From the IMG/VR virus record IMGVR_UViG_3300037486_000437, positions 1-54,324 of that record: a stretch of 54,324 nucleotides of DNA; one strand, written 5' to 3'. Source of the stretch: a virus. Its lineage: Duplodnaviria > Caudoviricetes. The position numbers and the translations under genes are program-made. Position 1 is the stretch's first letter, and the number at the start of each line of letters is the position of its first letter. Of the stretch, positions 771 through 50,000 are shown in pieces. The notes under the pieces were generated by a model. That model searched no databases. It was not told the DNA's origin and saw only the letters and a program-made list of their open reading frames with translations.

Positions 771-1840
<1,070 letters not shown>

Positions 1841-1843
1841 GCC

Positions 1844-2548: not shown

Positions 2549-3015
2549 ACCTCCAGGTACGCCTGGCGCTCCCCCAGGCTGCCCCAGCGCCGCACCATGC
2601 GCGCCGGATTGCCCACCACCACCGTCAGCGGCGGGACATCGTCCACCACCACCGCCCCGGCCCCGATGAGCGCCCCCTGCCCCACGCGCACCCCCGGCAG
2701 CAGCACCGCGCCGTTGCCAATGCTCACATCGTCGCCGATCTGCACCGGCTCCAGAGACACCGGCCCACCGACGACCGGATACCGATCATTACAAATCAGC
2801 ACGCCGTGCCCGATGAACACCCGGTCGCCGATCTGCGTCCCGCCGCCGAGCATGGCGTGCGTGCACACATGACAGCCGGCGCCGAGCACCGCCCCGCGCT
2901 GGATCTCCGTGAACGGCCCCACCGTCGTACCGGCCCCGAGCGTACAGCCGTACAAATTCACCAGCTCAGGGTGATGCACCACCACCCCCGGCCCCAGCGC
3001 GCAATCCTCAATCAT
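2539..3015 (-). CDS. Hexapeptide-repeat (left-handed beta-helix) sugar acyltransferase
   Basis: VNLYGC, IGDDVSIGNGAVLLPGVRVGQGALIGAGAVV, VVVGNPAR; start moved to ATG 3015 behind an AGGAGG RBS. Confidence 0.9.
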   Translation of the reverse strand: MIEDCALGPGVVVHHPELVNLYGCTLGAGTTVGPFTEIQRGAVLGAGCHVCTHAMLGGGTQIGDRVFIGHGVLICNDRYPVVGGPVSLEPVQIGDDVSIGNGAVLLPGVRVGQGALIGAGAVVVDDVPPLTVVVGNPARMVRRWGSLGERQAYLEVCA

Positions 3016-3059
3016 GCCCCTCTGCCTCCTGTCCCCTGCCCCCTGACCCCTGCCCCCCG

Positions 3060-3485
3060 TCAAATCACCCGATCCACCCAGCGCAGCCGAAAGCCCAGCA
3101 GGCAGCGATACCAACCCGTCTCCGGCTCGCGCACATCCATCGGCCCGGTCGTCTGCCAGCAGTGCGCCAGGCGGCCTGTACCGCCCGTTACAGTGACATC
3201 CAGCGGCCCGAGGCCGCTCAGTGCCACCCGCACCGTGCGCGCCAGCGCCCGTGCGCTCGCCGGCGTCGGCCCGTAGCAGTGCAGCCATACGTCCGTGTCG
3301 AACAGCGCCGCCAGCGCATCGGCCGGCCCGCCATCCTCGAGCACCAGGATCGCCTGCGTCGCGCCCCGGTAGGTGTCCGGCAGCCCCGGCGGCCCGTACA
3401 GCCGCGTACTGGTCAGCGCCGCCACCGTCGAGCGCCCGGCCAGCAGCGCCAGCGTCGCCTCCAACGTGTCCAGCCCCGTGGTCAT
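3060..3485 (-). CDS. Tail terminator / tail completion protein
   Basis: 141 aa with 'TRLYG', 'VWLHCYG..A.ALA..V..AL' and 'EPETGWYR' pattern; position in the head-tail block. Confidence 0.65.
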   Translation of the reverse strand: MTTGLDTLEATLALLAGRSTVAALTSTRLYGPPGLPDTYRGATQAILVLEDGGPADALAALFDTDVWLHCYGPTPASARALARTVRVALSGLGPLDVTVTGGTGRLAHCWQTTGPMDVREPETGWYRCLLGFRLRWVDRVI

Positions 3486-37200: not shown

Positions 37201-40200
37201 ACGGCGCTACGTCGGCGCTGGCCGCCCGGAAATACAATTTCTTATCCGCCCGGATCTGCCATTCCCAGTCCGTGCCGGCGTCCTCCGCAGCCAGCGCCTT
37301 CAGGCGCTCCAGCACGCTGGTGAGCTGCTCGCCGTTGGCCGTGAAGGTCGTCAGCGTCGGCCCGGCCGAGACATACGTCGCGGTGTTGAACTCCGTCAGG
37401 CCCGCGGCCGTGAAAGCGTCGGCGATGATGTCCTCGGCCGTGGTGTTGGTCCAGGTGCCCCGGATCAGCGGCGCCCGCCCCAGCCGTGTGCTGTAGCTCT
37501 CGCAGGTCAGCGCCCAGGCGCGATGGTTGCCATTCGCCACCAGCGTCGGCTGCGCCTTGACGACATAGCCGCCGAACTGCGCTACGCCGTCGATCTTGAA
37601 GATCACCACCTGCCACTCCGCCGCCGTGAAGGCGTTGCTCACGTCCTCGATCGTGAAGCGCAGCGTATCCACCTGGCTGCCGGCCACATCCACCCATTGC
37701 AGGCTGCCCCGCTGCAGCAGCGTGATGCGCTCCGTACCGGCGACGGTCAGCGAGAACGTCAACACCTGACTGCTGACAGGCACCGACGGCGAGACCGACG
37801 CCGACGGGCTGCGGCTGCTGGACGGGCTGCGCGAGCTTGACGGTGAGCGCGACGGTGAGCGCGACGGGCTGGTCGATGGTGAAATTGAGCTTGACGGTGA
37901 GCGCGACGGTGAAATCGAGCTTGACGGTGAGCGCGACGGTGAAATCGAGCTTGACGGTGAGCGCGACGGTGAAATCGACGGGCTGGTCGATGGTGAAATT
38001 GAGCTTGACGGCGAGCGCGACGGTGAAGTCGAGCTTGACGGGCTGGTCGAGCTCGACGGTGAGCGCGACGGCGAAATTGAGCTCGACGGTGAAACTGACG
38101 GTGACTCGCTCGCCGACGGGCTGGTCGATGGTGAAATTGAGCTTGACGGTGACTCGCTCGCCGACGGGCTGGTCGATGGTGAGCTTGAGCTTGACGGGCT
38201 AGTCGATGGTGAAACTGAGCTTGACGGTGACTCGCTCGCCGACGGGCTGGTCGACGGTGAAACTGAGCTTGACGGTGACTCGCTCGCCGACGGGCTGGTC
38301 GATGGTGAAATTGAGCTTGACGGGCTGGTCGATGGTGAAACTGAGCTTGACGGTGACTCGCTCGCCGACGGGCTGGTCGATGGTGAAACTGAGCTTGACG
38401 GTGACTCGCTCGCCGACGGGCTGGTCGATGGTGAAACTGAGCTTGACGGTGACTCGCTCGCCGACGGGCTGGTCGATGGTGAAATTGAGCTTGACGGTGA
38501 CTCGCTCGCCGACGGGCTGGTCGATGGTGAAATTGAGCTTGACGGGCTGGTCGATGGTGAAATTGAGCTTGACGGCAATTGCGACGGTGAAACTGAGCTT
38601 GACGGTGACTCGCTCGCCGACGGGCTGGTCGATGGTGAGCTTGAGCTTGACGGTGACTCGCTCGCCGACGGGCTGGTCGATGGTGAAATTGAGCTTGACG
38701 GTGACTCGCTCGCCGACGGGCTGGTCGACGGTGAAACTGAGCTTGAAGGTGAGCGCGACGGTGAAATCGACGGGCTGGTCGACGGTGAAACTGAGCTTGA
38801 AGGTGAGCGGCTCGGTGAAATCGACGGGCTGGTCGACGGTGAAACTGAGCTTGAAGGTGAGCGGCTCGGTGAAATTGACGGGCTGGTCGATGGTGAAATT
38901 GAGCTTGACGGTGACTCGCTCGGTGAAATTGACGGGCTGGTCGATGGTGAAACTGAGCTTGACGGTGACTCGCTCGGTGAAATTGACGGGCTGGTCGATG
39001 GTGAAACTGAGCTTGACGGTGACTCGCTCGGTGAAATTGACGGGCTGGTCGATGGTGAAATTGAGCTTGAAGGTGAGCGCGACGGTGAAATCGACGGGCT
39101 GGTCGACGGTGAAACTGAGCTTGACGGTGACTCGCTCGGTGAAATTGACGGGCTGGTCGATGGTGAAACTGAGCTTGACGGCGACCGGCTCGGTGAAATT
39201 GACGGGCTGGTCGATGGTGAAACTGAGCTTGACGGCGACCGGCTCGGTGAAATTGACGGGCTGGCCGATGGACTGGCCGATGGCGACACACTACTCGATG
39301 GTTCCACCGCCGCGTGCGTGATCGCCAGTAGCGGCCGATAGCCCGCCGTGTCATTGTCTTGCGTGCAGATGTAGATATATTCGGCGCCCGTCGGGGTGGT
39401 GCCAGCTTTGTCGCGAGACGAGCGCAGTCCATAGTATGTGTTGCCGGTTTTACTCGGCCAGGCGGTCGCGAGATTGCCAGAGGTGTATTGCGTATCGGTG
39501 CTGATGCCGCTCGTGCTGCGCCAAATGTTGTCGTCGGCGGCGGCGGATAGGCAGTTGTCGTAAGCCGCCTCCTGGTTGCCTGAGCTAAGCGGGTTCTGCG
39601 CCGACCAATCCTGTTTGACAATCTGGACGTTGAAATCGGTATCGGACACGTCAGTGGCGCAGGTCAGTTTGAGATTGACCTGCGAGATGACATCGGTGTC
39701 TGGAATGGCGCTGGTGCTGAAAACCAGCAGTCCGCGATAGACCCCATAGTATCCGATATAGGTTTGTCCTACGGCTGCGGAGGTGTAGTAGTTATCATAG
39801 GAAAGGCAGTCGCTACGCGCGGTAGAATAGATAAGATCGTGGTTGTATATATACGCATCGGCGCTGCCCGCCGCGTAGTCGGGATCAATCGTCACCGGGT
39901 AGACAGCATCGGCCAGCCAACTGACCGGCACGCCAGTGTAGAGATACTGGATGTTGCCGACCGTGCGCGCATAGCGTTTGCACTCAGCGCGGCTGCCTGG
40001 CCCCACACGGCTATCGTGCGCGCTTGGCGGCGGGAAACGCATCCCGGAGGTCTCAAATTCGTCCAGCCAGCCGTCCGGGAAACTGCTGCCCGTGATCTGC
40101 GTTTCGAGCACCAGCCAGTCAGACAGCTTGACGCCGGGGATGCTGGGCTTCTCGGCAATGACGATTTCCTCTCGCAAACCCTTCTCAGTCAGCGTCAACA

Positions 40201-40597
40201 CGCGCTTCCAAATGCCGTTCTCTGCAATGATCTGGTTGCCGGAAACATGGCCGAGCGGGATCGTGCGATAGCCGACAAAGGTCTTGGTAGCTGGCGTGAG
40301 GATGCCGACGCGCGTCGAGCGGTGGCTATGGTTCTGGCCGACGATGCGCACCGCCCCGTCGAGGCCGATGCGTGTCGCCAGCCCCGGCGCGCCGTACTCG
40401 GTGCCGATGACCTGGAGCGCAGTATCGAGCGGCTGCCACACGCCGTTCGTGTCCTGCCAGTGCGCCGGACTGCCGACGAAATGCGTGATGCGCTCGGTCG
40501 CGCTCAACGCCGCGGTGATGCCGTAGCGATGGCGCGTGAGCACCTTCCCGGCCAGGTCGGGATTGCGTTCGAGAAAGTCAGCCGCCCAATTTGCCAT
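34277..40597 (-). CDS. Giant tail tip/fibre protein with DNRLRE-like domain and ~500-aa Ser/Pro/Thr repeat
   Basis: N-terminal 'PAHWQD..G.W...D' and 'YPVTIDP', SPS repeat, tail-hub-like region, 'GANLLLNS...IDHVQVE...PSAW' CBM-like module, fibre C-terminus. Confidence 0.85.
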   Translation of the reverse strand: MANWAADFLERNPDLAGKVLTRHRYGITAALSATERITHFVGSPAHWQDTNGVWQPLDTALQVIGTEYGAPGLATRIGLDGAVRIVGQNHSHRSTRVGILTPATKTFVGYRTIPLGHVSGNQIIAENGIWKRVLTLTEKGLREEIVIAEKPSIPGVKLSDWLVLETQITGSSFPDGWLDEFETSGMRFPPPSAHDSRVGPGSRAECKRYARTVGNIQYLYTGVPVSWLADAVYPVTIDPDYAAGSADAYIYNHDLIYSTARSDCLSYDNYYTSAAVGQTYIGYYGVYRGLLVFSTSAIPDTDVISQVNLKLTCATDVSDTDFNVQIVKQDWSAQNPLSSGNQEAAYDNCLSAAADDNIWRSTSGISTDTQYTSGNLATAWPSKTGNTYYGLRSSRDKAGTTPTGAEYIYICTQDNDTAGYRPLLAITHAAVEPSSSVSPSASPSASPSISPSRSPSSSVSPSTSPSISPSRSPSSSVSPSTSPSISPSESPSSSVSPSTSPSISPSRSPSSSISPSTSPSISPSESPSSSVSPSTSPSISPSESPSSSVSPSTSPSISPSESPSSSISPSTSPSISPSRSPSSSVSPSTSPSISPSRSPSSSVSPSTSPSISPSRSPSSSVSPSTSPSASESPSSSISPSTSPSASESPSSSSSPSTSPSASESPSSSVSPSQLPSSSISPSTSPSSSISPSTSPSASESPSSSISPSTSPSASESPSSSVSPSTSPSASESPSSSVSPSTSPSASESPSSSVSPSTSPSSSISPSTSPSASESPSSSVSPSTSPSASESPSSSVSPSTSPSSSSSPSTSPSASESPSSSISPSTSPSASESPSVSPSSSISPSRSPSSSTSPSSSTSPSRSPSSSISPSTSPSISPSRSPSSSISPSRSPSSSISPSRSPSSSISPSTSPSRSPSRSPSSSRSPSSSRSPSASVSPSVPVSSQVLTFSLTVAGTERITLLQRGSLQWVDVAGSQVDTLRFTIEDVSNAFTAAEWQVVIFKIDGVAQFGGYVVKAQPTLVANGNHRAWALTCESYSTRLGRAPLIRGTWTNTTAEDIIADAFTAAGLTEFNTATYVSAGPTLTTFTANGEQLTSVLERLKALAAEDAGTDWEWQIRADKKLYFRAASADVAPFGLALVTTADWSSDFPVLGLPALSRDASLIYNRITVRGGTAPSAEITDTFTGDGSTVLFTLTTQPLRDIVRITVAGTLQSHGVDWYDSFGGGYDVLVNYSAGTLRFPDASPPAGSAAIVVVYRSDTAVVATAQSNASYTAYGNLWFDKEVSDSSITALADAQNLADALLEQYAYGSVSGTATVERFGIRAGQQVSVSFAALGLVGDYPVRKVTMSLTPGEFGIRATVNFGGQNDSLSAAVGGDGAGATSAPIVQGEVGIVRVRNRIELIDPATHFTSPSDYGNATGWVGLYDPATRTGKWLGTNSGALQAYLDSDGKIKASGVTIDALGITVTQGSIVVGSTNKLWLNDATDGALNIGGSVKAAAPFRVSATGALTATGVTITGALTPGVGSVLDGTYLSPGTVAAEKLIITAGGANLLLNSTMQVESGTTGWATGWAGYNNSVALEPFTAYDVHVAGGVDGRNYQSVTWAVNNTTVKGVYTTSVISGGVQGNWLANTTYVVSWWAAAVGTAIGTSMALYWNTAPASETWIARPNLTAAWQRYVARVAWGASVEAIGGLFISITSGAAVQGSLYIDHVQVEQSDTPSAWKPFPSELEPGSVTADKIYVASLAAIVVDTGALNMSGFLSIGAAGGIYQGTYQTGHDGDATWPETGLKIWRDGDIGRLATYNTHVAQVYFGTDGRLYAGGGDVKLDADGITFTADSSFVPTSGYRFTDGTNIFSGTSAWTSTSGREISVSVYHATADAIVSLDSSVPITSAKKAYVRLQANGNAGVQARLSLSTSGATPDAATLEFNLVTKHTFDTSGNYTMAGGAIRPASDSTTALQLGNASGTAIVTVDTTNNRVGVNGTPVLPLDAGGALNAPATSGTTRNGMLRVGYTDRTWAGSELNFGIINDGGTSYPAWIQAQKPNDLSVYRPLKLNPNGGDVIIGASTSYIGFYGVTAVARAVLATGAGATVDNVISALQNLGLVKQS
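37781..39301 (-). repeat. Coding tandem repeat encoding (SPSSSVSPSTSPSISPSR/E)n
   Basis: About 1.5 kb of 42-54-nt units built from shorter SPSx/SS blocks. Confidence 0.95.
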
Positions 40598-40728: not shown

Positions 40729-42390
40729 TCATGCGGCCCGCAGCGGCGCCAGCAGCTCCGCCAGTTGCGGCCAGCCGGGCACGTGCGCGCTGTCCGCCAC
40801 GTGCCAGTATTTCGGTTGACGGATGAAACGCTCCGTGCTGAAGCGCTTCGTCGTCAGGTTGCCCCGGTGCGCCAGATCCACATTCGGCGCGGCCGGCTGG
40901 AAGACCTCGAAATCGTACCAGTTCTGCCACTTCACCCGGCCGTGCGTCATCGGCTCGAAGCCCATCCAATAGCCGAAGTTTTTTTGCTCGATCAGTGCAT
41001 TGCGCTCCCGGAAGTGCGTCAACAGCGGCGCCCGATACGCCACCAGCCCTGCCAGCGGCGTCAGGTCGTAATGCACCGCCAGCCCGTCACTCAGGCGCAC
41101 CTGCCACCAGTGGCCGTTGTACCAGAACGTCTGGCTATCCGGCGGCGTGAATTGGAAGTGCTCCGGCGCATACAGCACGTCGTGCTCACAGAAGAAGATC
41201 ACATCCTCGGTCATGGCCGCCAGCCCCGCCTCGATCTGCCGGAACAGCGTGCGATAGCCCCGCTCCTCCGCCAGTACGATGTTGCGCCCGAAGTCCGTCG
41301 GCTTCAGCGTTACGGACGTGATCGGCAGCCCCGCCGCCGCGATGTACCCCCGGCACAAGCGGGCCAGCCGCATGTTGAGCGCGTTGTCGGTGTAGTAGAG
41401 GATGCCTTTCGTCGGCTCGCCCACAGCCATGACCGCCGGCGCTGCCTCAGCCTCAACCTCAACCTTAGCCTCAGTCTTAGCCTCGCCGGTCTCCGCTGGC
41501 GTCGTCACCCAACCCGGCGGCTGAAACTTGTCGATCAGCCACTGGAATGGATAGATTGCGCCGGGCCAGCCGTCACGCTGGAAGAGCGCTCGGGACCGCT
41601 CCCGATTCTCATCTACCTCGCGCTGCGGCAGCTCATAGGGAAAGCCGAAATCGCCGCCCTGCGTCCTGAAAAGATGGGCATACCAGGTCCTCCGGTTCAC
41701 CAGCACCCGGCCTCCGCTCAGCCACGTCTTACACGCCACTTCGACGCCCTGCTGCCCCCACGAATGGAACTCCTCCGAACAGATGTCCAACGCCCAATAC
41801 TTCGCCCGTGTCACCATGAAACAACTGCCCTGGATGCTCAGCGTCTCGGTCAGGTCGCCGGCTTGCACCCGCCCGAACTCGTTCCAGTATTGGAAGTGCA
41901 ACGTCTCATCGAAGCGGTACGCTGTGCTTTGCGGATTGCGCTTGGGGATCCACACCACATCCTGCACCGTCGCCGCCCCGCACTCCGTGCACGGTCCGCT
42001 CGGCCCCTGGTAGCGGCGGTGGCCGGCCGGGCAGACCCAGTCGAAGGCGTGCAGGTTGCGCATCACCGGCACCATCGTTATGTCGTCCTGCATCAGCGCC
42101 AACAGCTTGCGGTCAAAGCCCTGCTCGAAGGCGCAATGCGCATCGACCTTCATCACGTACCGCGCTGTGGTCAGCCGGCAGAGCTGGTTCGTCATCGCCC
42201 GTTGCCCGATGGACTCCGCCACGTGCAGCAGCGTCACCCGAGGATGATCCTCGATCGGCGGCTCGGCCCAGGCGCCGTCGAGGCCGGCCAGGATCTCGGT
42301 ATCGGCCTCGCTGTGCTCCAAAATGTCTTGGATCGTGCGCGCCAGGAATTGTTCGTTGCGTGCGGGGATCAGAATTGCAAGCTCACTCAT
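40729..42390 (-). CDS. Two-domain glycosyltransferase (ppGalNAc-T-like GT-A plus a second GT-A domain)
   Basis: IPARNE, KVDAHC, WGQQGVEVACKTWLSGG..WYAHLFR; second domain FFCEHDVLY. Confidence 0.85.
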   Translation of the reverse strand: MSELAILIPARNEQFLARTIQDILEHSEADTEILAGLDGAWAEPPIEDHPRVTLLHVAESIGQRAMTNQLCRLTTARYVMKVDAHCAFEQGFDRKLLALMQDDITMVPVMRNLHAFDWVCPAGHRRYQGPSGPCTECGAATVQDVVWIPKRNPQSTAYRFDETLHFQYWNEFGRVQAGDLTETLSIQGSCFMVTRAKYWALDICSEEFHSWGQQGVEVACKTWLSGGRVLVNRRTWYAHLFRTQGGDFGFPYELPQREVDENRERSRALFQRDGWPGAIYPFQWLIDKFQPPGWVTTPAETGEAKTEAKVEVEAEAAPAVMAVGEPTKGILYYTDNALNMRLARLCRGYIAAAGLPITSVTLKPTDFGRNIVLAEERGYRTLFRQIEAGLAAMTEDVIFFCEHDVLYAPEHFQFTPPDSQTFWYNGHWWQVRLSDGLAVHYDLTPLAGLVAYRAPLLTHFRERNALIEQKNFGYWMGFEPMTHGRVKWQNWYDFEVFQPAAPNVDLAHRGNLTTKRFSTERFIRQPKYWHVADSAHVPGWPQLAELLAPLRAA

Positions 42391-43165
42391 AGCTCGCCTC
42401 GCTGCCCAATGACGACACCGGGAACGCGCCCGGCACCAGCTCATCCCCCTTCTGCGCCCGCTCCGCCCGCTGGTGCAGATCGTGAAATAACCCGAATGGG
42501 TTAAGCGCGCCGTTGACGTTGAACCGCCCCAGTGGGAACAGATAGATGTCCGGCCCGGTGTGCAGCGTCTCGCCCCGGTGCGCTTTGTTCCACTTGGCGT
42601 TGAAATAGCAATCATCCCCCTGCCGGCTGGCCGGGTGATAGCCCCGCTCGCACGTCGCCCGGTCATAGCCGCCCAGCGCCAGGAAGTCGCGTCGCGGCAT
42701 GGCCCAGGTGTTGCCGTGCACCGAAGCGTCCAGCCTCTCCCCCACATAGCCCCACTCCGCCAGCGTCGCCCGCTCCTGCCGCAAAGCGCCCTGCGCGTCC
42801 AGGATGCCGATCTGCCGGCGGAAGATCATTTTAGGACCCTGATAATTGCACGCCGCCTCGATGGCCGCCCGACTCAAGATGTGGTCGATGTCCGTCATCA
42901 GCAGAAGCTCGCCGCGCGCCGCCTCCGCCCCCAGGTTGCGCGCTAAGCCCTGCGTCCACGCCAACTGGTTGCCGGTGTGCAGCACGCGCAGCCCCGGCAG
43001 CCGGTAATCCCGCACGTCGAGCGCCGGGCGGCTGCCGTCGTCCACGAAGATGAATTCCACGTCGGCGTCCAGGCCCATGCGCGCCAACCACAGCGCCTGG
43101 CGCCGCACGATCTCGTGGCTGTTGTAGATCGCAATCACCACCGAAAGCAACGGCTCACCGTACAT
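42383..43165 (-). CDS. Glycosyltransferase family 2 (GT7-like C-terminus)
   Basis: SVVIAIYN, VDDGS, ARNLG, TDIDH, LGGYD, GDD. Confidence 0.9.
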   Translation of the reverse strand: MYGEPLLSVVIAIYNSHEIVRRQALWLARMGLDADVEFIFVDDGSRPALDVRDYRLPGLRVLHTGNQLAWTQGLARNLGAEAARGELLLMTDIDHILSRAAIEAACNYQGPKMIFRRQIGILDAQGALRQERATLAEWGYVGERLDASVHGNTWAMPRRDFLALGGYDRATCERGYHPASRQGDDCYFNAKWNKAHRGETLHTGPDIYLFPLGRFNVNGALNPFGLFHDLHQRAERAQKGDELVPGAFPVSSLGSEASYE

Positions 43166-43667
43166 CGGCCAGCTCCCGGAAATTGCTCACCACGCTCGAG
43201 CTCGGATACAGCCCCGTGTAATCGTAGCGGTATTTGAACAGCGGCCAGATCCGGCTATACCCGTATTGCGCATCCCACGCCGGCTCGGTGTCGTGGATCA
43301 CGATCAGATCGGCCAGATAACGCAGCCGGGCGATCTCCACCGGCCGGCGCCGATTCGGGCTATGATCGACGAACGCCAGGCCCCAGTGATACTCAGTCAG
43401 ATCCACCGCGTCCCACGCTTCGCACTTGCGGATGTGATGATACTCGCTCTGCCAGCGTTGCGCCCGCTCGCACCAGCCACCCCGGCTCTCATACGAATAC
43501 ACGTGCCGCTGGCTGACCGTCGCCAGCCAGTGCAGCAGCAGCGTCGAAAAGTAGCCCGTGCCCAGCTCCAGCACCGGCCCCTGGCTTTTGTCGAAACAGC
43601 GCGTCAGCAGCGGGATATGGCTCGCCACCATCACGCCATCGGTCACATGCTCAGCGGGGTCTGCCAC
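43155..43667 (-). CDS. Class I SAM-dependent (glycan) methyltransferase
   Basis: VLELGTGYFST, AFVDH, IVIHDT; GGAGG RBS. Confidence 0.75.
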   Translation of the reverse strand: MADPAEHVTDGVMVASHIPLLTRCFDKSQGPVLELGTGYFSTLLLHWLATVSQRHVYSYESRGGWCERAQRWQSEYHHIRKCEAWDAVDLTEYHWGLAFVDHSPNRRRPVEIARLRYLADLIVIHDTEPAWDAQYGYSRIWPLFKYRYDYTGLYPSSSVVSNFRELADVR

Positions 43668-44347
43668 AATGCCTCCATCTGGGCCGCCGTGCCCCAATAC
43701 GGAATCTCGGTCGCCTGAAACGCCCCGAGCTGCTTGCGGTTGCCGGTATACTGGTAGCCGATGGCCGCCTCGTGAAACACCACCACATGCGGCTCCGGCG
43801 CCTCGAACGCGACCAGCCGCCGCGGTGTCACGCCCAGGCGCTGCTCGTGCCGCCCCACCTCGCTCCAGTGCCCCAGGTTGATCTGCGCAGCGTCCGGGTA
43901 TTTGGCGAAACGCTCCTCCAGCGCCGCCTGCAGCAGCGCCGTCGGCGCAATGCCGCCCGTGGTTGGCCACTTGACCGCCGGATGGTTGAAGCACGCCGGC
44001 CACCACGTGAACCAGGCCCACTTGTGCATGTCGTAGCCGATGGCGTCGGCCGGCGGCCGCCAGCAGGTGAAGTGGCTCGGCGGATACAGGATGTCATCCT
44101 CCGCCAGCGCCACGTATGGCGTGCGCACCGCCCGCACGCCGATCAACTGCTGCCGATAGATGTTGATGTACTGCTGCCCGATCTCGCCGACGCAGATGTT
44201 CTCGCCGAAGCCCGGCAGCGGCTTCTGTGACACGCTCACCAGCGGCAGATCGCCAATGGCCCCCAAGAGCTTCTGGCGCACCAGCGCCCCGAACGGCTCT
44301 CGGATCACGTTGGCCGTGTAGTAAAGCACCGTGAGATCAGGCGTCAT
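43643..44347 (-). CDS. GT-A fold glycosyltransferase
   Basis: VLYYTAN, ALAEDDILYPPSHF; resembles the second domain of 40729-42390. Confidence 0.75.
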   Translation of the reverse strand: MTPDLTVLYYTANVIREPFGALVRQKLLGAIGDLPLVSVSQKPLPGFGENICVGEIGQQYINIYRQQLIGVRAVRTPYVALAEDDILYPPSHFTCWRPPADAIGYDMHKWAWFTWWPACFNHPAVKWPTTGGIAPTALLQAALEERFAKYPDAAQINLGHWSEVGRHEQRLGVTPRRLVAFEAPEPHVVVFHEAAIGYQYTGNRKQLGAFQATEIPYWGTAAQMEALWQTPLSM

Positions 44348-44361
44348 CTACCCATTTCTCC

Positions 44362-44481
44362 ATCTAACGTCTGAAATAAGCTGCCCGTCACACTTCCAGC
44401 AATACGGGCTGCGGCCCATCCGGGGAATCAACTTCGCTACGGGCTGCCCCTGTTCGGGTCAGCTTCATTTCTTGGTTATCC
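44362..44481 (-). mobile_element. attC: attC site A (120 bp)
   Basis: Minus strand R'' GGATAAC-5 nt-L'' AATGAAGC ... L' GCTTATT-6 nt-R' GTTAGAT; two extrahelical bases. Confidence 0.85.
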
Positions 44482-45212
44482 GTCAGAGGAGGTTGGAGCC
44501 GAGCCTTCCGGCACCGTTCCTCAGCAATCTCGAAGTAATCCCGCCTGAGTTCGATCCCCGTCCCGCTGCGTCCCGTCTTGATGCAGGCGACCAGCGTCGT
44601 GCCGCTGCCCATTGTGTTGTCAAGCACGGCGTCGCCTTCGTTCGTGTACGTGCGAAGCAGGTATTCCAGCAGGGCGACCGGCTTCTGTGTTGGATGTTCG
44701 GGAATCATGACCGTCGAAAACGGAACTATTGAAGTCGGGTAGTAGTCGGCGTTTTCGGTGGTTTGACGATCCGCAAACTTTCCGTAAACTTGGGCGGGGC
44801 CAGTCCTGGCCCCGCCCCGGCTGTGCAGCGTGCCCCGTTTCATCACCGGGTTGTAGGTGTGTCCATTGGGTGCGAACACGCAAATATCCTCATGCTTCTT
44901 CAATGGCTTACGCTTGCAATCCAGATGGCCCGTGGCCCGTGACTTCTCCCAAACCCAAACATACTTGAACCACGCCAGGTTACTGCATACCAGTAGGCTG
45001 GTGAACGGCTGCGAGCCGAACAGCACGATAGCGCCCCTGGGCTTGATCAGCCGCTTGTACTCCGCCCATAGCGGCTCGAATGGGATGACCACATCCCAGG
45101 AGCACGCCGTCGTGCCGTAGGGCAAGTCAGCACAGATCATGTCAAAGCTCGCGCTCGGCAAGGTTGGCATGACTTGCAGACAATTCCCATGAATCAGTGT
45201 CTCGTTACTCAC
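44388..45212 (-). CDS. Beta-class N6-A/N4-C DNA methyltransferase (cassette 1)
   Basis: ADLPY, HPTQKP, VLDNTMGSGTT; GTG 45212 chosen (alternative start 45254). Confidence 0.9.
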   Translation of the reverse strand: MSNETLIHGNCLQVMPTLPSASFDMICADLPYGTTACSWDVVIPFEPLWAEYKRLIKPRGAIVLFGSQPFTSLLVCSNLAWFKYVWVWEKSRATGHLDCKRKPLKKHEDICVFAPNGHTYNPVMKRGTLHSRGGARTGPAQVYGKFADRQTTENADYYPTSIVPFSTVMIPEHPTQKPVALLEYLLRTYTNEGDAVLDNTMGSGTTLVACIKTGRSGTGIELRRDYFEIAEERCRKARLQPPLTDNQEMKLTRTGAARSEVDSPDGPQPVLLEV

Positions 45213-45224
45213 GTTGCCTCTGCC

Positions 45225-45344
45225 GGATAACGGTTGAAATAAGCTGCCCGTCACCCAACCGGCAAGACGAACAGCGGCCCATCCGGGGAGTCAACTTCGC
45301 TGCGAGAGAACCCACTTCGGGTCAGCTTCATTTCGTTGTTAGAT
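45225..45344 (-). mobile_element. attC: attC site B (120 bp)
   Basis: Minus strand R'' ATCTAAC-5 nt-AATGAAGC ... GCTTATT-6 nt-R' GTTATCC; arms identical to attC A. Confidence 0.85.
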
Positions 45345-46141
45345 CGGAGCGGCAATTGAAGCGCAGTTCCAGCAATACGACCCCTGGCATTCTCGAAGAA
45401 CCTGCGATTGATTTCGCACCCGATGAAATCCCTGCCAGTGCGAACGGCTGCAACTCCGGTAGACCCCGACCCCATGAAACAATCCAGCACAACGGGAATC
45501 CTGGCGCCATCTTTCAGGCAAGTGAACATCTGGATAAGACGCTGCGGTATCTCGACCGGGAACGCTGCCGGATGCCCGTTCTGCCGGGCGGGAACGTTCC
45601 ACCAAACGTCTTTGGTCTCATCCAGGAAGGGCACGTCCTTCGTGCCCCGCCTGCCCGTGCCGTTGTCGTAGTAGTATCTGCTTTTGCTGTGAAGTAGGAT
45701 CATTTCACAGGTTGGGCGAACATAGATATTGTTATCAGACCCCATGGCGTAGGACGTTGCTATCGGCCCGGTATCCTCTTTGCCCTTTACCCAGACAATC
45801 GCTTCTCGTGGCAAGAATCCAAGTCGCTCACACATAAGCTCGACCCGAACGGCGATCTTTTCAACCCGTCTCCCGATCTGTTCGATGGAGTCACGGCGTA
45901 ACCGAACCTCCTTCGGAACATTGATGGCAATGACCCCGCCGTCTCGCAGAAGGCGATAGCTCAGCGTCAAGAATCGCTCCATCTCGGCGTAGTAGGTCGG
46001 CCAGTCGGTGTCATCGGAAAGCTCTCCGTAGTCCATGCCAACGTTGTAGCGCGGCGATGTTACGATCAGGTCGACGCTGGCTTCTGGCAGGCGTGCCATG
46101 ACATCGAAAGCATCCTCGTTGTACAGTGTCACGTTACCCAC
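45251..46141 (-). CDS. Beta-class (probably N4-C) DNA methyltransferase (cassette 2)
   Basis: TSPRY (SPPY variant), HPAAFP, VLDCFMGSGSTG. Confidence 0.88.
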   Translation of the reverse strand: MGNVTLYNEDAFDVMARLPEASVDLIVTSPRYNVGMDYGELSDDTDWPTYYAEMERFLTLSYRLLRDGGVIAINVPKEVRLRRDSIEQIGRRVEKIAVRVELMCERLGFLPREAIVWVKGKEDTGPIATSYAMGSDNNIYVRPTCEMILLHSKSRYYYDNGTGRRGTKDVPFLDETKDVWWNVPARQNGHPAAFPVEIPQRLIQMFTCLKDGARIPVVLDCFMGSGSTGVAAVRTGRDFIGCEINRRFFENARGRIAGTALQLPLRSNNEMKLTRSGFSRSEVDSPDGPLFVLPVG

Positions 46142-46151
46142 GATCTAAGCT

Positions 46152-46197
46152 CCGGTCTAACTTGTATTTATGCGGAATGGATTCCGCATAAACGCCC
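46152..46197 (-). mobile_element. attI-like site heading the cassette array
   Basis: Minus strand GCATAAA-TACAA-GTTAGAC (compare attI1 CCCTAAA-ACAAA-GTTAGGC) plus a 12-bp inverted repeat. Confidence 0.7.
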
Positions 46198-46216
46198 GTA
46201 GAGCGTCAAAAGCGGA

Positions 46217-47077
46217 TCAGCCATACAGCCTCCGCTCCCAGTCGTCAGGCCAGCCCGGTATCGGCCAGAAGCGCTCGATGAACTTCTCGAAGAACACCCG
46301 CCGCTCGTGCACCCACAGATTGTAGGCGTAGGCGTTGCAGGCGTGCACCGACGCATTGCTCATGTAGTAGCCCCGCCCGTACTTGGGCCCCTTGTGCAGG
46401 TGGGCATACCAGGTCAACTTGTTGGTCAGCACGCGCCCGCCGTGATACCAGGTGCTCAGCCCGATCTCCTCCGCCTCCTGGCCCCACCCGCTATACCCCT
46501 CGATCTGCATGAAGCCGCAACGCGCAAACCAGCTTTTCGCCATGAACCAGCAGCTTCCCTGGAAGTGCATCGTCTCGTCAATTGGGATCTCGGCCCGTTC
46601 GAGCGTGCGGGCGTCCCAGCGGAAGCCGTGCAGCCCCAGCGGATTGAACTTCAACGGAAACATGGTGTGCTCGTAGTCGATCGGCGGCCGGTCGTCGCTC
46701 TGCGTCTGCAGGCACCAGTTCTCGGCGTCCAGGCGATGCCGGCGGGGGATCATCACGCTGTCCGGCTCGTAGTTGTCCGCCAGCACCACGTCGAAGCCCT
46801 CCGCCACCAGGCAGTGCGCATCCAGCGCCATGATGTACGGCCCATCGGCCAGTTCGACCGCCCAATTGATGGCGTGGCGCTTCTGGGTGGTGCTCTGCGC
46901 CGGCAGGTGCAGATAGGTCAGCCGGGGATCGTCGATGACCTCCGCCGCCGGCAGCTCGTAGCCGTCGAGCATGGCGTACACGGCGATGTCGCCGCGCGCC
47001 TTGGCCAGCACATCGCGCAGTGTCGCCGTCAAAAACTGTTCGTTGCGACTGGGTACGATCACCGTCACCTGGCTCAT
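46217..47077 (-). CDS. Glycosyltransferase, ppGalNAc-T (GT27)-like GT-A
   Basis: VIVPSRNE, ALDAHC, WGQEAEEIGLSTWYHGG..WYAHLHK. Confidence 0.85.
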   Translation of the reverse strand: MSQVTVIVPSRNEQFLTATLRDVLAKARGDIAVYAMLDGYELPAAEVIDDPRLTYLHLPAQSTTQKRHAINWAVELADGPYIMALDAHCLVAEGFDVVLADNYEPDSVMIPRRHRLDAENWCLQTQSDDRPPIDYEHTMFPLKFNPLGLHGFRWDARTLERAEIPIDETMHFQGSCWFMAKSWFARCGFMQIEGYSGWGQEAEEIGLSTWYHGGRVLTNKLTWYAHLHKGPKYGRGYYMSNASVHACNAYAYNLWVHERRVFFEKFIERFWPIPGWPDDWERRLYG

Positions 47078-47078: not shown

Positions 47079-50000
47079 TCACGCTCCAATTCTTATTTCG
47101 TAGGCGAGGGCAGATTTTAGCAATTCAAACTGCGCCGGGTCCAACGGCACGCCGCCGCCGGCTTGCCCCGTGAACTCCACCACCACCCGCCGCTCGCTCG
47201 TCACCGTGTAGCTGCCGCCCAGCAGCCCCGCCAGCCCCGGCTCCACCGCCAGCGCCAACTGGCGCGCTGCCGCCTGCACCTCGGCGGTCGCCCCCAACAG
47301 GCCCAGCGCCATGCCGTGCCCGATGGCGCTGCCCAGTCCCTCGCCCAGGCTCTCGGCATCCCCGCCGCCGCCCAGACCGCCGGCAATCGACTGCATGACC
47401 GCCGCCACATAATCCAGGAAGTCCTGGAACTGCGCCATGCTGGGCAGCCCGTGCTCGCCCAACGCCGTGAACAGATTCAGCGCCCGCTCCAGCACGCCGA
47501 ACACCTGTTCGAGCGCCGTCCCAAACTCCGCCGCCGTCGGGAGCCAACTTACGAGATCCTCCTGCGCCACGTATTCCCGCCAGGCGTGCAGCGTGCCCGA
47601 GATGCGTTCGATCAGATCCGCCATGCGAATCTTGAAGGTCAGCGCCGAGCTGGCCGCGCCGTCGGTGAGCTGCTTGACCACGCCCAACGCCGTGCCCAGC
47701 ATCCCGAACACCCCGCCGGCCGCCGTCGCAAACGCTGTAGTCGCCGCGGTAGCGGCCTGGACACCGGCGCCCGCCGCATAGGTCTGGATCAGGTTATACG
47801 CGTAGGTCACGGAGTCCAGGAAGCCCTGGATGCGGCTGTTGAGCACCGGGATATAGCTCTGCAGATCCTTGAAGACGCTGACCGCATTCGCCAGCCCGCC
47901 GAACAGCGCGCCCGCCGCCGTGCCGAAGAAGCCGGCCGCCTTGGCCGCCTCCTCGGTCAGATTGCCCGCCGCCCACGTCGCCAACTGCCCCACAAGCGCC
48001 TCAACATCGGCCATGAAGCGGCTCAGCGCGTCCTCGGTCGGTCCGACATACTCTACTACGCCGCGCAAGGCGGTCAGCGCACTGCCCAGCCCGTTGAACA
48101 AATGCGCCGTGGCTGCCCCGAAATCCTGCGCCGCTTTGACCAGCGCCTCGGTCAGGTTGCCCGCCGCCCAGGTCGCCAGCTGGCCCACCAGCCGGCCCAC
48201 ATCGGCCACGAAGGCATCGACCGCCAGCGCCGCCGGCGCCACATAATCTCCGAGCGCCGTCAACGCCTCGACGCCTGACTTGACGATGCCCAGCGCCGGC
48301 CCCGCCGCGGTCGCCAGCTTGGCTGCCGCCGCCAGCAGCTCGTCGGTGATCAGCGCGGAGGCCGTGCCGAGCAAATTCACCAGCCGCTTGATGAACGTCA
48401 CCAACTGCTGCAGGCTCTTGTCCACCGCATTGAGGCTGGCCAGCGGCACATAATCCTTGATTGCCACCAGCGCGTCGACGCCTGACTTGACGATGCCCAG
48501 CGCCGACCCCGCCGCCGCCAGCTTTTGCGCCGCGGTCAGCACGTCCTCGGTGATCATCGCGGAGGCCGTGCCGAGCAAATTCACCAGCCGCTTGATGAAC
48601 GTCACCAACTGTTGCAGGCTCACATCGACTGCGTTGAGGCTGGGCAGTGGCACGTATTCACGTACTGCGCCGATGGCGTCCAGCGCCGTTTTTACCAGCG
48701 CCAACGCCGGCCCGGCTGCATCCACCAGCCGCTTGGCCCCCGCCAGCACATCCAGCGCCAACGTGGCTCCGCATTGGCCCAACCAGTCGACGAGCACCCT
48801 GAGAAAACTCCCGATCTGCATGGTGTTGAGATGCAGGATGCCAAACGCCTGCGGACTCAGCCTAACATAAGCGCCGAGCGTCTCGATCATCCTTAGCGTC
48901 AACCAGATCACGTCCAACGCTGGCCCGGCAGCTTCCACCAACCGTTGCGCTGCCGCCAGCACACCCACCTTGAACGCGGCGCTGGCCTGCCCCAGCCAGT
49001 TGATGAGCAACGATAGGAAGTTGGCAATCTGGTTGGTGTTAAGATACAAAAGCAGAAACGCCTGCGGACTCAGTCGGACATACGCGCCTATGTCACCGAT
49101 CGCATCAATGGCCGTTTTGACCAGCGCCAACGCTGGCCCGACCGCTTCCACCAACCGTTGCGCAGCTTCGAGTAAACTCGCTGCCAATCTGGCCCCGTTC
49201 TGCCCCAGCCAGTTGATGAGCAACGATATGAAGTTGGCAATCTGGTTGGTGTTGAGATACAAAAGCAGAAACGCCTGCGGACTCAGTCGGACATACGCGC
49301 CTATGTCACCGATCGCATCCAGGGCGTCGCCGACGATCGCCAGCACCGGCCCCACGCTCTCCGCAAGCTGGATGGCTGCCGCGCGCAGTTCATCATCCAC
49401 CAACGCGGCCGCTTCGCCCACTACCGTTACCAGTTGAGCAATAAACGCGCCCACCCGCCGCAACTGCGCAATGTCAGGAATTACAAAGCCGCGCAGCAGG
49501 CGCTCGCTCAGGCTCAGCGCGCCGTCGATCGTCTCTAGCAGCGTCGGCACGGCCGCCAAGCCTTCGGCCAGCAGCCCCAGCACCCGCGCTAAATCCAGCG
49601 CATCCGTCAGTGCGGCGGGATCCAGCGTCCGATTCAGCTCCGCCAGCTTGCCGATGACCACTTTGAGCGCCTCGATCACGCGCGCGGCCCCCGCCTGCGT
49701 TTTGGCCAGCGCCGTGTCGTAGGCCGCCAGCGCCGTTACAGCGTCGAGCACCGGGACCAGGCTTTCGAGCATCTCGCCCAGCGGGGCCAGCACCGCCTTC
49801 GCACCCCCGAAGCCGTGCGCCGGATCCGCCGCCCAGCCGGATAGCTCGGCGAAGCCGCGCACGATGGCCTTAACGCTTTCGAGCAGCGGCGCAATTTTCG
49901 CCGCCAGGTTGGCCCGGGGTACAAATTCTGCCAGGGCATCCAGCCCCTCCAGGATGCCCTGCAGATCGGTCAGCATGTCGCTCAGTGGCTCCAGCACCGC

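What the first reader, a model, noticed from the sequence alone, without database searches (positions are those of the whole stretch)
40729..47077. Two glycosyltransferases with polypeptide GalNAc-transferase (GT27)-like signatures
Seen: 46217-47077 has ALDAHC and WGQEAEEIGLSTWYHGGRV..WYAHLHK; 40729-42390 has KVDAHC and WGQQGVEVACKTWLSGGRV..WYAHLFR. Known: eukaryotic ppGalNAc-Ts use a DxH metal motif (FLDAHC/FLDSHC) and a WGGENLEIS.R.W.CGG...GHVFR motif, unlike ordinary DxD GT2 enzymes. Inference: these are lectin-domain-less, protein-acceptor initiating transferases, one fused to a second GT domain that could elongate. They may also be useful glyco-engineering enzymes.
Basis: partly seen in the sequence, partly recalled or inferred. 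Interest (0 to 1): 0.82.

Follow-up and report, generated by a model that had tools for sequence, protein, structure and literature searches.

The report
Phage mucin-type tail glycosylation enzymes
An uncultured phage carries two sugar-adding enzymes that most resemble the animal enzymes that start mucin glycosylation, and they sit beside a tail protein with a 508-residue serine-proline repeat that they most likely coat with sugars.

Summary
Both ORFs and all quoted motifs are at the stated coordinates, and the motif residues are invariant in 60- and 53-sequence family alignments.

AlphaFold models of both proteins (pLDDT 93 and 91) hit only polypeptide GalNAc-transferases (GT27) in every listed Foldseek PDB rank. 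Family profiles hit GT27 chains in 16 of 18 and 15 of 18 PDB matches.

The enzymes have no lectin domain and no membrane anchor. They share 14-19% identity with GT27, so I call them GT27/GT60-like, not members.

The window is a complete 54-kb temperate siphophage. The genes belong to a conserved cassette between the tape measure gene and a 2106-aa tail protein. That protein carries 102 SPS units (288 Ser). An SPS-repeat ORF lies next to the cassette in 15 of 18 related viral contigs, but in only 17 of 57 MAG loci.

Most likely the cassette O-glycosylates this tail stalk in the host cytoplasm. The acceptor, the sugar and which enzyme initiates are inferred, not shown.

The scan had already noted this module on other DNA (e1-5962107, e1-1001480, e1-841639). 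The GT27 likeness is the new element. My six paper searches found no description of it.

The parts
46217..47077 (-). Stand-alone DxH GT-A glycosyltransferase (286 aa), GT27/GT60-like. DAHC at 46811-46822, WGQE...GG at 46430-46486, distal His in WYAHLHK at 46391-46411.
   Evidence: PF00535 E 1.5e-8. AF2 pLDDT 93.1, pTM 0.92. Foldseek PDB: all listed ranks are ppGalNAc-Ts, best E 7.6e-14, TMq 0.73. Profile vs PDB: GalNAc-T1 at 6.2e-6. The ATG lies 1 nt after the TMP stop codon.
41494..42390 (-). N-terminal DxH GT-A domain (residues 1-299) of the 553-aa fusion, a paralogue of the 286-aa enzyme. It carries a Cys-His-Cys-Cys insertion (C120, H124, C134, C137; window 41980-42033) that looks like a zinc ribbon.
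   Evidence: 33% identity to the 286-aa GT. Invariant D83, H85, H239, C120, H124, C134, C137. Foldseek PDB: all listed ranks are ppGalNAc-Ts, best E 4.6e-15. Profile vs PDB: GalNAc-T1 at 1.8e-7.
40729..41421 (-). C-terminal GT-A-like domain (residues 324-553) of the fusion, with a nearly invariant E402-H403-D404 (window 41179-41187). It is joined to the N-domain by a low-confidence linker (residues 300-323).
   Evidence: AF2 pLDDT below 50 only at residues 300-323. Nearly invariant E402, H403, D404. ESM Atlas structural neighbours are viral GT2-annotated clusters, TM 0.69-0.89. No Pfam hit.
43643..44347 (-). Stand-alone paralogue (234 aa) of the fusion's C-terminal GT-A-like domain, with EDD in place of EHD.
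   Evidence: BLASTP 31% over 163 aa, E 4e-15. Hits at 40% identity or more in 4 of 18 viral loci, which I take as orthologues.
43155..43595 (-). Conserved 146-aa cassette protein, possibly a class I SAM methyltransferase (ELGxGxxS motif).
   Evidence: tblastn hits in 34 loci, out of the 75 fetched up to L077. Profile hits 3ntv (MW1564 protein) at E 8.2e-4. No Pfam hit for the window copy; 1 of 17 members hits PF13578 at E 0.17. Weak support only.
42383..43165 (-). GT2-type GT-A glycosyltransferase (260 aa). Its stop overlaps the fusion's start codon.
   Evidence: PF10111 at 9.6e-9 and PF00535 at 1e-8. Present in 11 of 18 viral loci. Overlap ATGAGTGA.
34277..40597 (-). 2106-aa tail protein, the proposed acceptor. 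Layout: N-terminal CBM96-like domain (residues 1-430, window 39308-40597), SPS repeat stalk (residues 431-938, window 37784-39307), C-terminal tail/fibre part (residues 939-2106).
   Evidence: Repeat composition is 288 Ser, 104 Pro, 27 Thr, with 102 SPS units. It is the only protein in the genome with more than 40% Ser+Thr in any 25-residue window; two others reach exactly 0.40, one in the spurious upstream extension of the fusion ORF. ESM Atlas: nearest clusters carry PF24517 CBM96 in 54-59% of members, score 0.96-0.97. Weak PF24032 YQBQ-like hit, below cut-off.
47079..53051 (-). Tape measure protein (1990 aa), directly upstream of the cassette. It places the cassette in the tail operon.
   Evidence: 16 PHROG tape-measure/tail families, best E 1.3e-22.
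44388..46141 (-). Two N6/N4 DNA methyltransferase genes (44388-45254 and 45251-46141) inserted inside the cassette. They are not part of the conserved module.
   Evidence: PF01555 at 3.4e-25 and 1.2e-35. Absent from 18 of 18 related viral loci. A 114-nt direct repeat lies at both 3' ends.
767..3288 (-). Second glycan block: GT4 (767-1786), weak GT-A (1844-2548) and hexapeptide acyltransferase (2539-3288). Possibly part of the same glycan pathway.
   Evidence: PF13692 at 3.2e-14 and PF00534 at 3.5e-14; PF03452 at 4.4e-5 and PF00535 at 1.5e-4 (both below cut-off); PF00132 at 2.5e-20.

Best explanation
The window is a complete temperate siphophage genome. The two flagged genes encode soluble, lectin-less GT-A glycosyltransferases. 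Their catalytic core has a DxH plus distal-His metal site and a WG(Q)E...GG 'Gal/GalNAc-T' motif. This core is of the retaining polypeptide-HexNAc-transferase type (CAZy GT27, and perhaps GT60).

The two genes are the conserved ends of a late-operon cassette: DxH-GT, ExD-GT, a methyltransferase-like protein, GT2, and a DxH-GT fused to ExD-GT. The cassette lies between the tape measure gene and a 2106-aa tail protein.

Proposed mechanism (inferred). During late infection, in the host cytoplasm, one or both DxH enzymes use a host UDP-sugar and Mn2+ to put the first alpha-linked sugar on Ser or Thr of the 508-residue (SPSx)n stalk of that tail protein. The ExD and GT2 domains then extend the glycan. 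The GT4, GT-A and acetyltransferase at 767-3288 and the methyltransferase-like protein may add to it or decorate it. The result would be a stiff, protease-resistant, mucin-like stalk that holds out an N-terminal CBM96-like sugar-binding domain.

Shown: fold, motifs, family-level conservation, gene linkage. Inferred: the acceptor, the initiating role, the sugar, and the stalk function.
For: Genome context:
- The record is complete, with direct terminal repeats. It has TerL and portal, an HK97-like capsid protein, a tape measure and a serine integrase.

Fold:
- AF2 models have pLDDT 93.1 and 91.0.
- Every listed Foldseek PDB rank is a ppGalNAc-T. Best values are E 7.6e-14 with TMq 0.73 and E 4.6e-15.

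Sequence:
- Family profiles hit GT27 chains in 16 of 18 PDB matches (best 6.2e-6) and 15 of 18 (best 1.8e-7).
- DAHC, WG.E..EI, GG and the distal His align with the same GalNAc-T1 residues.
- PF02709 is matched by 50 of 60 family members at E<=1, best 3.5e-5.
- D86, H88 and H226 are invariant, as are D83, H85 and H239.

Linkage:
- 15 of 18 viral contigs found with the 286-aa GT also carry the fusion. The 3 without it are cut by the contig or locus end.
- 15 of 18 carry an SPS-repeat ORF at contig GC of 0.33-0.61. In 11 it follows the fusion directly and in 3 it lies just upstream of the first GT.
- The repeat uses both Ser codon families (TCA 131, AGC 84, TCG 69), so Ser is kept at the protein level.
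- It is the only S/T-rich protein of the genome.
- Genes are packed 1 nt apart or overlapping. Promoter-like and terminator-like sites in the region do not exceed shuffled expectation.

Related forms:
- Fused relatives carry sugar-type methyltransferase domains and none lists a lectin domain.

From recall, not from a call: ppGalNAc-Ts prefer Pro at +1 and +3 of the acceptor, and SPSxSPS supplies both.
Against: - No biochemical data exist, and no acceptor or donor was tested.
- Identity to GT27 is only 14-19%.
- Single-sequence PDB E-values are 0.03-0.05.
- The window proteins themselves do not reach PF02709 at E<=1. Only 4 of 53 fusion-family members do, while 10 of 53 weakly touch PF11397, the GT60-type family.
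- The fusion paralogue has an invariant Gln where GT27 has the Glu of WGGE.
- In MAG-derived loci only 17 of 57 show an SPS ORF within the fetched 10-kb flanks, and 40 of 57 do not.
- The Foldseek table shows only the best ~50 ranks out of 468 and 266 matches with E<=0.001. I did not see how far behind the first non-GT27 GT-A lies.
- With 7 GT domains in the genome, another one could be the initiating enzyme.
Confidence: 0.6

Rival explanations
1. The cassette does glycosylate the SPS stalk, but the two DxH enzymes are not the initiating transferases. They add alpha-linked sugars to a sugar already attached by another enzyme (the GT2 at 42383-43165, an ExD domain, or the GT4 at 767-1786).
For: The genome has 7 GT domains. 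In the serine-rich-repeat glycoproteins of Gram-positive bacteria the first sugar is added by a GT-B enzyme (recalled). Two conserved, non-redundant DxH paralogues, one with Gln in place of the WGGE Glu, fit different acceptors or donors, and one could be a follow-up enzyme.
Against: The closest solved structures of both are peptide-directed enzymes, in every listed rank. The two DxH enzymes are the most constant members of the cassette across loci. The GT4 block is far from the cassette.
Confidence: 0.2
2. The cassette acts on a host target rather than the virion. It would remodel a host surface protein or polysaccharide, as a lysogenic-conversion or superinfection-exclusion function or as an 'auxiliary' gene set, as has been proposed in general terms for viruses of ultra-small bacteria.
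For: The same cassette is chromosomal in a Parcubacteria MAG, next to FtsH, RecG, HtpX-like and TatC genes, with its own 907-aa SPS protein and a surface Ig-like protein. 40 of 57 MAG loci show no SPS ORF nearby. Passages read in PMC11310336 suggest viral GTs help host cell-surface glycosylation. The phage is temperate (integrase).
Against: Here the genes sit inside the tail operon, 1 nt after the tape measure gene and directly before the SPS tail protein, on the late strand and far from the integrase. The phage supplies its own SPS acceptor, and so do 15 of 18 related viral contigs.
Confidence: 0.13
3. The transferases glycosylate phage DNA (hypermodified bases) to evade restriction, which would fit the two DNA methyltransferases in the same block.
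For: Two PF01555 DNA methylases lie between the GT genes. Phage GTs that hypermodify DNA are known (a citation seen in PMC12619734).
Against: The methylases are absent from 18 of 18 related cassettes and look like an insertion flanked by a 114-nt repeat. The complete genome has no thymidylate-synthase-family gene (PF00303), which would be needed to make hydroxymethyl pyrimidines. The fold matches are peptide-directed enzymes.
Confidence: 0.03

Closest known systems
Eukaryotic polypeptide GalNAc-transferases (CAZy GT27; e.g. human GalNAc-T2 4d0z/2ffu, GalNAc-T10 2d7i, mouse GalNAc-T1 1xhb, Toxoplasma GalNAc-T3 8ujg)
   Same: GT-A catalytic fold (TMq 0.61-0.73). DxH plus distal His metal ligands. 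WG.E..EI and GG of the Gal/GalNAc-T motif. PF00535 plus PF02709 at family level. A dense Ser/Pro-rich presumed acceptor.
   Different: No ricin-type lectin domain, no membrane anchor and no stem. Presumably cytoplasmic rather than Golgi. 14-19% identity. WGQE or WGQQ instead of WGGE. One copy has a Cys-His-Cys-Cys insertion and a fused second GT domain. The donor sugar is unknown.
GT60-type UDP-GlcNAc:polypeptide alpha-GlcNAc-transferases of Dictyostelium and Trypanosoma (Pfam PF11397 'GlcNAc')
   Same: Lectin-less, DxH-type relatives of GT27 that act on Ser/Thr or hydroxyproline (recalled). 10 of 53 fusion-family members weakly match PF11397, best E 0.015. Several BFVD neighbours are phage proteins annotated 'Glycosyltransferase, GlcNAc'.
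   Different: Matches are far below any curated threshold. The window proteins do not match PF11397 at E<=1. I saw no GT60 structure among the PDB hits to compare with.
Mycobacteriophage virion glycosylation (Che8, Corndog, Myrna; Freeman et al. 2023, Cell Host Microbe)
   Same: Phage-encoded glycosyltransferases modify the phage's own structural proteins. I know this only from citations and passages in PMC11256854 and PMC12619734; the paper itself was not held.
   Different: There the glycans sit on short C-terminal extensions of capsid and tail-tube subunits. Here the presumed target is a 508-residue repeat in one tail protein. tblastn of both window GTs found no match in 50,697 GenBank phage records, mycobacteriophages included. 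The nearest actinophage GT in BFVD (Gordonia phage Sixama) is only rank 47.
Serine-rich repeat glycoproteins of Gram-positive bacteria (GspB, Fap1) and their gtf loci
   Same: Cytoplasmic multi-enzyme O-glycosylation of a very long Ser-rich repeat encoded beside the transferases. The fusion-family profile touches the Fap1-pathway enzyme GalT1 (5hea) at E 1.1e-4 over the nucleotide-binding half.
   Different: SRRPs are initiated by a GT-B GtfA/GtfB pair and exported by an accessory Sec system (recalled). Here there is no such pair, the repeat is SPSx rather than S(V/A/T)S, and the carrier is a phage tail protein.

Membership tests
CAZy GT27 (polypeptide GalNAc-transferase) | GT-A fold whose closest solved relatives are GT27 catalytic domains | tested here: met
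   Foldseek PDB: all listed ranks (to rank 50 and rank 48) are ppGalNAc-Ts, E 7.6e-14 and 4.6e-15.
CAZy GT27 (polypeptide GalNAc-transferase) | Mn2+ site made of DxH plus a distal His | tested here: met
   D86/H88/H226 and D83/H85/H239 are invariant and align to DAHC and GHVFR of GalNAc-T1. Metal binding itself was not tested.
CAZy GT27 (polypeptide GalNAc-transferase) | Gal/GalNAc-T motif (WGGE...) / Pfam PF02709 | tested here: inconclusive
   WGQE in the 286-aa enzyme; WGQQ with an invariant Gln in the fusion. PF02709 is matched by 50 of 60 and 4 of 53 family members at E<=1, but not by the window proteins.
CAZy GT27 (polypeptide GalNAc-transferase) | C-terminal ricin-type lectin domain | tested here: not met
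   The 286-aa protein ends with the catalytic domain. There is no lectin Pfam hit, and none among the listed Pfam domains of 65 longer relatives.
CAZy GT27 (polypeptide GalNAc-transferase) | Type II membrane anchor and stem (Golgi lumen) | tested here: not met
   Both proteins start directly with the first beta strand at residues 4-10. No hydrophobic N-terminus is visible in the sequence.
CAZy GT27 (polypeptide GalNAc-transferase) | Significant sequence similarity at family level (CAZy/dbCAN assignment) | tested here: inconclusive
   phmmer E 0.05 and 0.027 for single sequences. Profiles give 6.2e-6 and 1.8e-7. No dbCAN model was available.
CAZy GT27 (polypeptide GalNAc-transferase) | Transfers GalNAc from UDP-GalNAc to Ser/Thr of a polypeptide with retention | not testable with these tools
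   Needs enzyme assays.
Phage virion self-glycosylation systems | Phage-encoded GTs in the structural operon together with an S/T-rich region in a virion protein | tested here: met
   The cassette lies between the tape measure and the SPS tail protein. The same linkage holds in 15 of 18 viral contigs.
Phage virion self-glycosylation systems | Glycan demonstrated on the virion protein | not testable with these tools
   Uncultured phage, no particles.
Pfam PF00535 (GT2-like GT-A) | Match above the curated cut-off | tested here: met
   35.2 and 40.8 bits against a cut-off of 23.3. This family also covers the N-half of GT27 enzymes (recalled), so it does not discriminate between them.

The most novel reading that the evidence does not exclude
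Phages and ultra-small (Patescibacteria) bacteria share an ancient prokaryotic 'mucin' system. In it, lectin-less GT27/GT60-like enzymes start O-glycosylation of (SPSx)n stalks. These enzymes would be the long-missing prokaryotic or viral relatives, possibly the source, of the eukaryotic enzymes that initiate mucin-type O-glycosylation. On the phage, the glycosylated stalk would mimic the host's own surface glycoprotein while holding out a sugar-binding domain.
Probability: 0.12. Interest if true: 0.85.

Novelty: new variant of a known kind. Interest (0 to 1): 0.68.

Why it matters
Self-glycosylation of phage particles is known so far from a few mycobacteriophages, where it affects antibody recognition. 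I know this from passages in citing papers only.

The cassette described here differs in three ways:
- It is much more widespread. There are more than 1100 and more than 5100 metagenomic relatives of the two enzymes.
- It is absent from all 50,697 deposited phage genomes that were searched.
- It is built around enzymes whose nearest solved relatives are the animal and parasite enzymes that start mucin glycosylation.

If the inferred function holds, it would give three things:
- Small (286 aa), soluble, lectin-free, bacterially expressible polypeptide glycosyltransferases with a simple repeat acceptor. These would be useful for glyco-engineering.
- A testable case of a mucin-like bottle-brush stalk in a phage tail.
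- A prokaryotic or viral anchor for the evolutionary history of GT27 and GT60.

Tried and rejected
**Gene neighbourhoods by exact protein look-up.** I used the search for related loci instead.

**The mycobacteriophage glycosylation paper.** PMC10527164 is not held. What I say about it comes from passages in PMC11256854 and PMC12619734.

**Reverse test: do SPS-repeat genes in viral contigs usually carry the cassette?**
- A degenerate IUPAC pattern worked on the window: 8 matches against 0 expected.
- A reference-based related-loci run with a 700-residue stretch covering most of the repeat and the first ~200 residues after it confirmed only 2 of 388 candidate stretches, both from the two closest relatives.
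- The reverse test was therefore not achieved.

**Docking.** Complex prediction was run with the 286-aa enzyme (as alignment A2), a 40-residue SPS peptide and Mn. It returned no verdict: score 0.01 against a mark of 0.32, and the controls were not run. This counts neither for nor against binding.

**PHROGs.** No family matched any of the five cassette proteins or the SPS protein.

**Methyltransferase reading of the 146-aa protein.** Support is weak only: a profile hit to 3ntv at E 8.2e-4, and no Pfam hit for the window copy.

**DNA glycosylation.** Rejected. No PF00303 gene is present, and the DNA methylases are absent from 18 of 18 related cassettes.

**Other low-complexity acceptors.** I looked for them in 39 loci without an SPS ORF (36 of the 40 SPS-less MAG loci and 3 viral loci). 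None was found. Four loci gave low-entropy segments only: three from masked N runs and one from an Arg/Pro-rich frame.

**Literature.** Six full-text searches turned up no paper describing GT27-like phage enzymes or SPS-repeat tail glycosylation. Supplements were closed and may hold relevant annotation tables.

**Not done.** dbCAN/CAZy assignment, host assignment, and a tree of phage versus cellular copies.

Full report
**What the window is.** The 54,324-bp window is a whole virus record with direct terminal repeats. Almost all genes lie on the minus strand. I identified:
- a large terminase (15687-17375) and a portal (13987-15744);
- an HK97-like capsid protein (6962-7990: DUF6260 and Linocin_M18);
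- a 1990-aa tape measure protein (47079-53051; 16 PHROG tail families, best E 1.3e-22);
- a plus-strand serine integrase (31909-33510).

It is therefore a complete temperate siphophage.

**The observation.**
- In a 60-sequence alignment containing both paralogue families, D86, H88, C89, W198, G199, G214 and H226 are invariant.
- In a 53-sequence alignment of the fusion family, D83, A84, H85, W211, Q214, G215, E217, G226, G227 and H239 are invariant.
- The two proteins are paralogues: 33% identity, E 1.8e-31.

**Are they GT27-like?** Pfam sees only the generic GT-A family PF00535 in both, which does not discriminate. Four more specific tests all point the same way.
1. Single-sequence phmmer against all PDB chains gave only weak hits (E 0.05 and 0.027 at best). 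All of them were polypeptide GalNAc-transferases: 1 of 1 for the 286-aa enzyme and 8 of 8 for the fusion, counting the Toxoplasma GalNAc-T3 entry 8uhv.
2. Family profiles made the link significant.
   - A2 gave GalNAc-T1 at 6.2e-6, with 16 of 18 hits at E<=1 being GT27.
   - A3 gave GalNAc-T1 at 1.8e-7, with 15 of 18 being GT27.
   - The non-GT27 hits (3bcv, chondroitin synthase, 5hea GalT1, 6p61) match only the N-terminal nucleotide-binding half.
3. AlphaFold models are confident (pLDDT 93.1 with pTM 0.92; pLDDT 91.0). Foldseek against the PDB lists nothing but ppGalNAc-Ts in every rank shown.
   - For the 286-aa enzyme this runs to rank 50, best E 7.6e-14, TMq 0.73.
   - For the fusion it runs to rank 48, best E 4.6e-15.
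   - Many further GT-A matches exist below these (468 and 266 with E<=0.001). I could not see where the first non-GT27 one lies.
4. PF02709, the C-terminal sub-domain shared by GT7 and GT27, is matched at E<=1 by 50 of 60 members of A2 (best 3.5e-5). It is matched by only 4 of 53 members of A3, where 10 of 53 instead touch PF11397, the GT60-type 'GlcNAc' family (best 0.015).

The HMM alignment puts DAHC on DAHC, WGqeaeEI on WGGENLEI, GG on CGG and the His of YAHLHK on the His of GHVFR of GalNAc-T1. All three metal ligands and the core of the Gal/GalNAc-T motif are therefore in register.

**Why I do not file them as GT27 members.**
- Identity is 14-19%.
- There is no ricin-type lectin domain. 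None appears among the listed Pfam domains of 65 longer fused relatives either. Those carry methyltransferase domains (PF13578, PF13489, PF05050, PF04989) or a second GT domain.
- There is no membrane anchor. The first beta strand starts at residue 4.
- The fusion paralogue has an invariant Gln in place of the WGGE Glu.
- It also has an insertion with invariant C120, H124, C134 and C137, which looks like a zinc ribbon (window 41980-42033).

"GT27/GT60-like retaining-type GT-A" is as far as the evidence goes.

**The rest of the fusion and the cassette.**
- Residues 300-323 of the fusion are a low-confidence linker. Residues 324-553 form a second alpha/beta domain with a nearly invariant E402-H403-D404.
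- The ESM Atlas places this second domain among viral clusters named glycosyltransferase, and structurally near GT2-annotated giant-virus proteins (TM 0.69-0.89).
- The 234-aa ORF at 43643-44347 is a stand-alone paralogue of this domain (31% identity, E 4e-15).
- The ORF at 42383-43165 is a GT2-type enzyme.
- The 146-aa ORF at 43155-43595 is conserved in 34 fetched loci. It is only weakly methyltransferase-like (profile hit to 3ntv at 8.2e-4; no Pfam hit for the window copy).
- The two PF01555 DNA methylases in the middle are absent from all 18 related viral loci. Each ends in a copy of a 114-nt repeat. I read them as an insertion, not as part of the module.
- A second glycan block (GT4, a weak GT-A and a hexapeptide acyltransferase) lies at 767-3288.

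**The likely acceptor.** Directly downstream of the fusion lies a 2106-aa ORF (34277-40597).
- Residues 431-938 (window 37784-39307) hold 288 Ser, 104 Pro and 27 Thr, arranged as 102 SPS units.
- It is the only protein in the genome with more than 40% Ser+Thr in any 25-residue window. Two others reach exactly 0.40, one of them in the spurious upstream extension of the fusion ORF.
- Ser is encoded by both codon families (TCA 131, AGC 84, TCG 69). The same SPSx motif recurs in relatives with contig GC from 0.33 to 0.68. Both facts argue for selection on the protein rather than a DNA-repeat artefact.
- The N-terminal 430 residues resemble CBM96 carbohydrate-binding modules in ESM Atlas feature space (score 0.96-0.97; PF24517 on 54-59% of members of the nearest clusters). 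Pfam itself gave no hit, so this is a lead only.
- The C-terminal 1168 residues give only a sub-threshold baseplate-like hit (PF24032).

**Linkage across other genomes.** The search for related loci with the 286-aa enzyme returned 18 viral contigs.
- 15 of the 18 also encode the fusion, at 40% identity or more. The 3 that do not are cut by the contig or locus end just downstream.
- 11 of 18 have the GT2. 5 of 18 showed the 146-aa ORF at the E<=1e-5 table level.
- 15 of 18 have an ORF with a long SPSx repeat. In 11 it starts right after the fusion gene, in 3 it lies just upstream of the first GT, and in 1 it is about 4.7 kb downstream.

Against this, only 17 of 57 MAG-derived loci show such an ORF within the fetched flanks. 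I looked for any other low-complexity ORF in 36 of the 40 SPS-less MAG loci and in the 3 SPS-less viral loci, and found none. Many of these loci are truncated or have larger cassettes, but I cannot exclude that the cellular versions serve other acceptors.

One cellular locus that I examined (L043, a 455-kb Parcubacteria contig) has the cassette beside FtsH, RecG, an M48 protease and TatC. It also has two methyltransferases, a 907-aa SPS protein and a surface Ig-like protein. The module is therefore cellular as well as viral. The MAG labels are mostly Patescibacteria, with some Anaerolineales, Planctomycetota and 'Gammaproteobacteria' bins.

**Mechanism I commit to (confidence 0.6).** This is late-operon, cytoplasmic, mucin-type O-glycosylation of the phage's own tail stalk. 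The DxH enzymes use Mn2+ and a host UDP-sugar to attach the first sugar to Ser or Thr. The other GT domains extend the glycan.
- Gene packing fits a single transcription unit. The GT start lies 1 nt after the tape-measure stop, the GT2 stop overlaps the fusion start, and promoter-like and terminator-like sites do not exceed shuffled expectation.
- From recalled knowledge, ppGalNAc-Ts favour Pro at +1 and +3 of the acceptor. In SPSxSPS the first Ser has Pro at +1 and the second has Pro at +3.
- Also from recall, densely glycosylated mucin domains are extended (about 2.5 Å per residue). A 508-residue stalk could then reach on the order of 100 nm. This is inference only.

**Rivals.** Three rivals are scored in the Rival explanations section: the DxH enzymes as follow-up rather than initiating transferases (0.2), a host-surface target (0.13), and DNA glycosylation (0.03). 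The last is weakened by the absence of any PF00303 gene and by the non-conserved methylases.

**What is known.**
- tblastn of both enzymes against 50,697 GenBank phage records found nothing, even at E<=1 for the fusion. PHROGs has no family for any cassette protein.
- In BFVD the nearest viral structures are proteins of uncultured Caudovirales, several annotated 'Glycosyltransferase, GlcNAc', and giant-virus GT2s. The nearest actinophage GT is rank 47.
- The metagenomic families are large. For the 286-aa enzyme, 1112 proteins reached E<=1e-3 among 1714 candidates. For the fusion, 5144 did among 8000 scored candidates, which was a capped list.
- Six literature searches found no description of this module. 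PMC11310336 (passages read) mentions only that viruses of CPR/DPANN organisms often carry glycosyltransferases.
- Phage self-glycosylation as such is known from mycobacteriophages. I have this from passages in PMC11256854 and PMC12619734; the primary paper was not held.

**Earlier notes of this scan.**
- The same kind of module was noted in another phage (e1-5962107).
- It was also noted in two Patescibacteria genomes, where follow-up agents reached the same acceptor inference (e1-1001480, e1-841639).

My results agree with these. They add the structural and profile link to GT27, the linkage counts, and the chromosomal context of L043.

**Verdict.** I class it as a new variant of a known kind, with interest 0.68.

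Noticed in passing
window 44365-44478 and 45228-45341: A 114-nt direct repeat (82% identity) covers the 3' end of each of the two DNA methyltransferase genes, giving them similar C-terminal tails. The two genes are absent from all 18 related cassettes, so they look like mobile insertions into the glycosylation operon. Another first-reader note calls these attC-like sites.
   Followed up: partly
window 767-3288: A second glycan block on the late strand: GT4 (PF13692/PF00534), a weak GT-A (Anp1/PF00535, below cut-off) and a hexapeptide acyltransferase. This brings the phage to seven GT domains.
   Followed up: partly
window 39308-40597: The N-terminal 430 residues of the SPS tail protein look like a CBM96 (DNRLRE-type) carbohydrate-binding module in ESM Atlas feature space. 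Pfam gave no hit. The closest relatives (L001, L002) share the C-terminal part of this protein but not this N-terminal domain.
   Followed up: partly
window 41980-42033: The fusion's GT27-like domain carries an insertion with invariant Cys120, His124, Cys134 and Cys137, apparently a zinc ribbon. It is absent from the 286-aa paralogue and from the GT27 alignment.
   Followed up: no
L043 1-20852 (Parcubacteria MAG contig): The same cassette is chromosomal, next to FtsH, RecG, an M48 protease and TatC. It is followed by a 907-aa SPS-repeat protein and a protein with a bacterial surface Ig-like domain. The cellular version has two extra methyltransferases.
   Followed up: partly
window 37784-39307: Ser codon use in the repeat is very unlike the rest of the gene: TCA is used 131 times inside the repeat and 9 times outside it. 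This suggests recent amplification of a few repeat units.
   Followed up: no
window 28062-29621: A 519-aa protein with a DUF6011 motif (E 6.5e-12) of unknown role in the early region.
   Followed up: no
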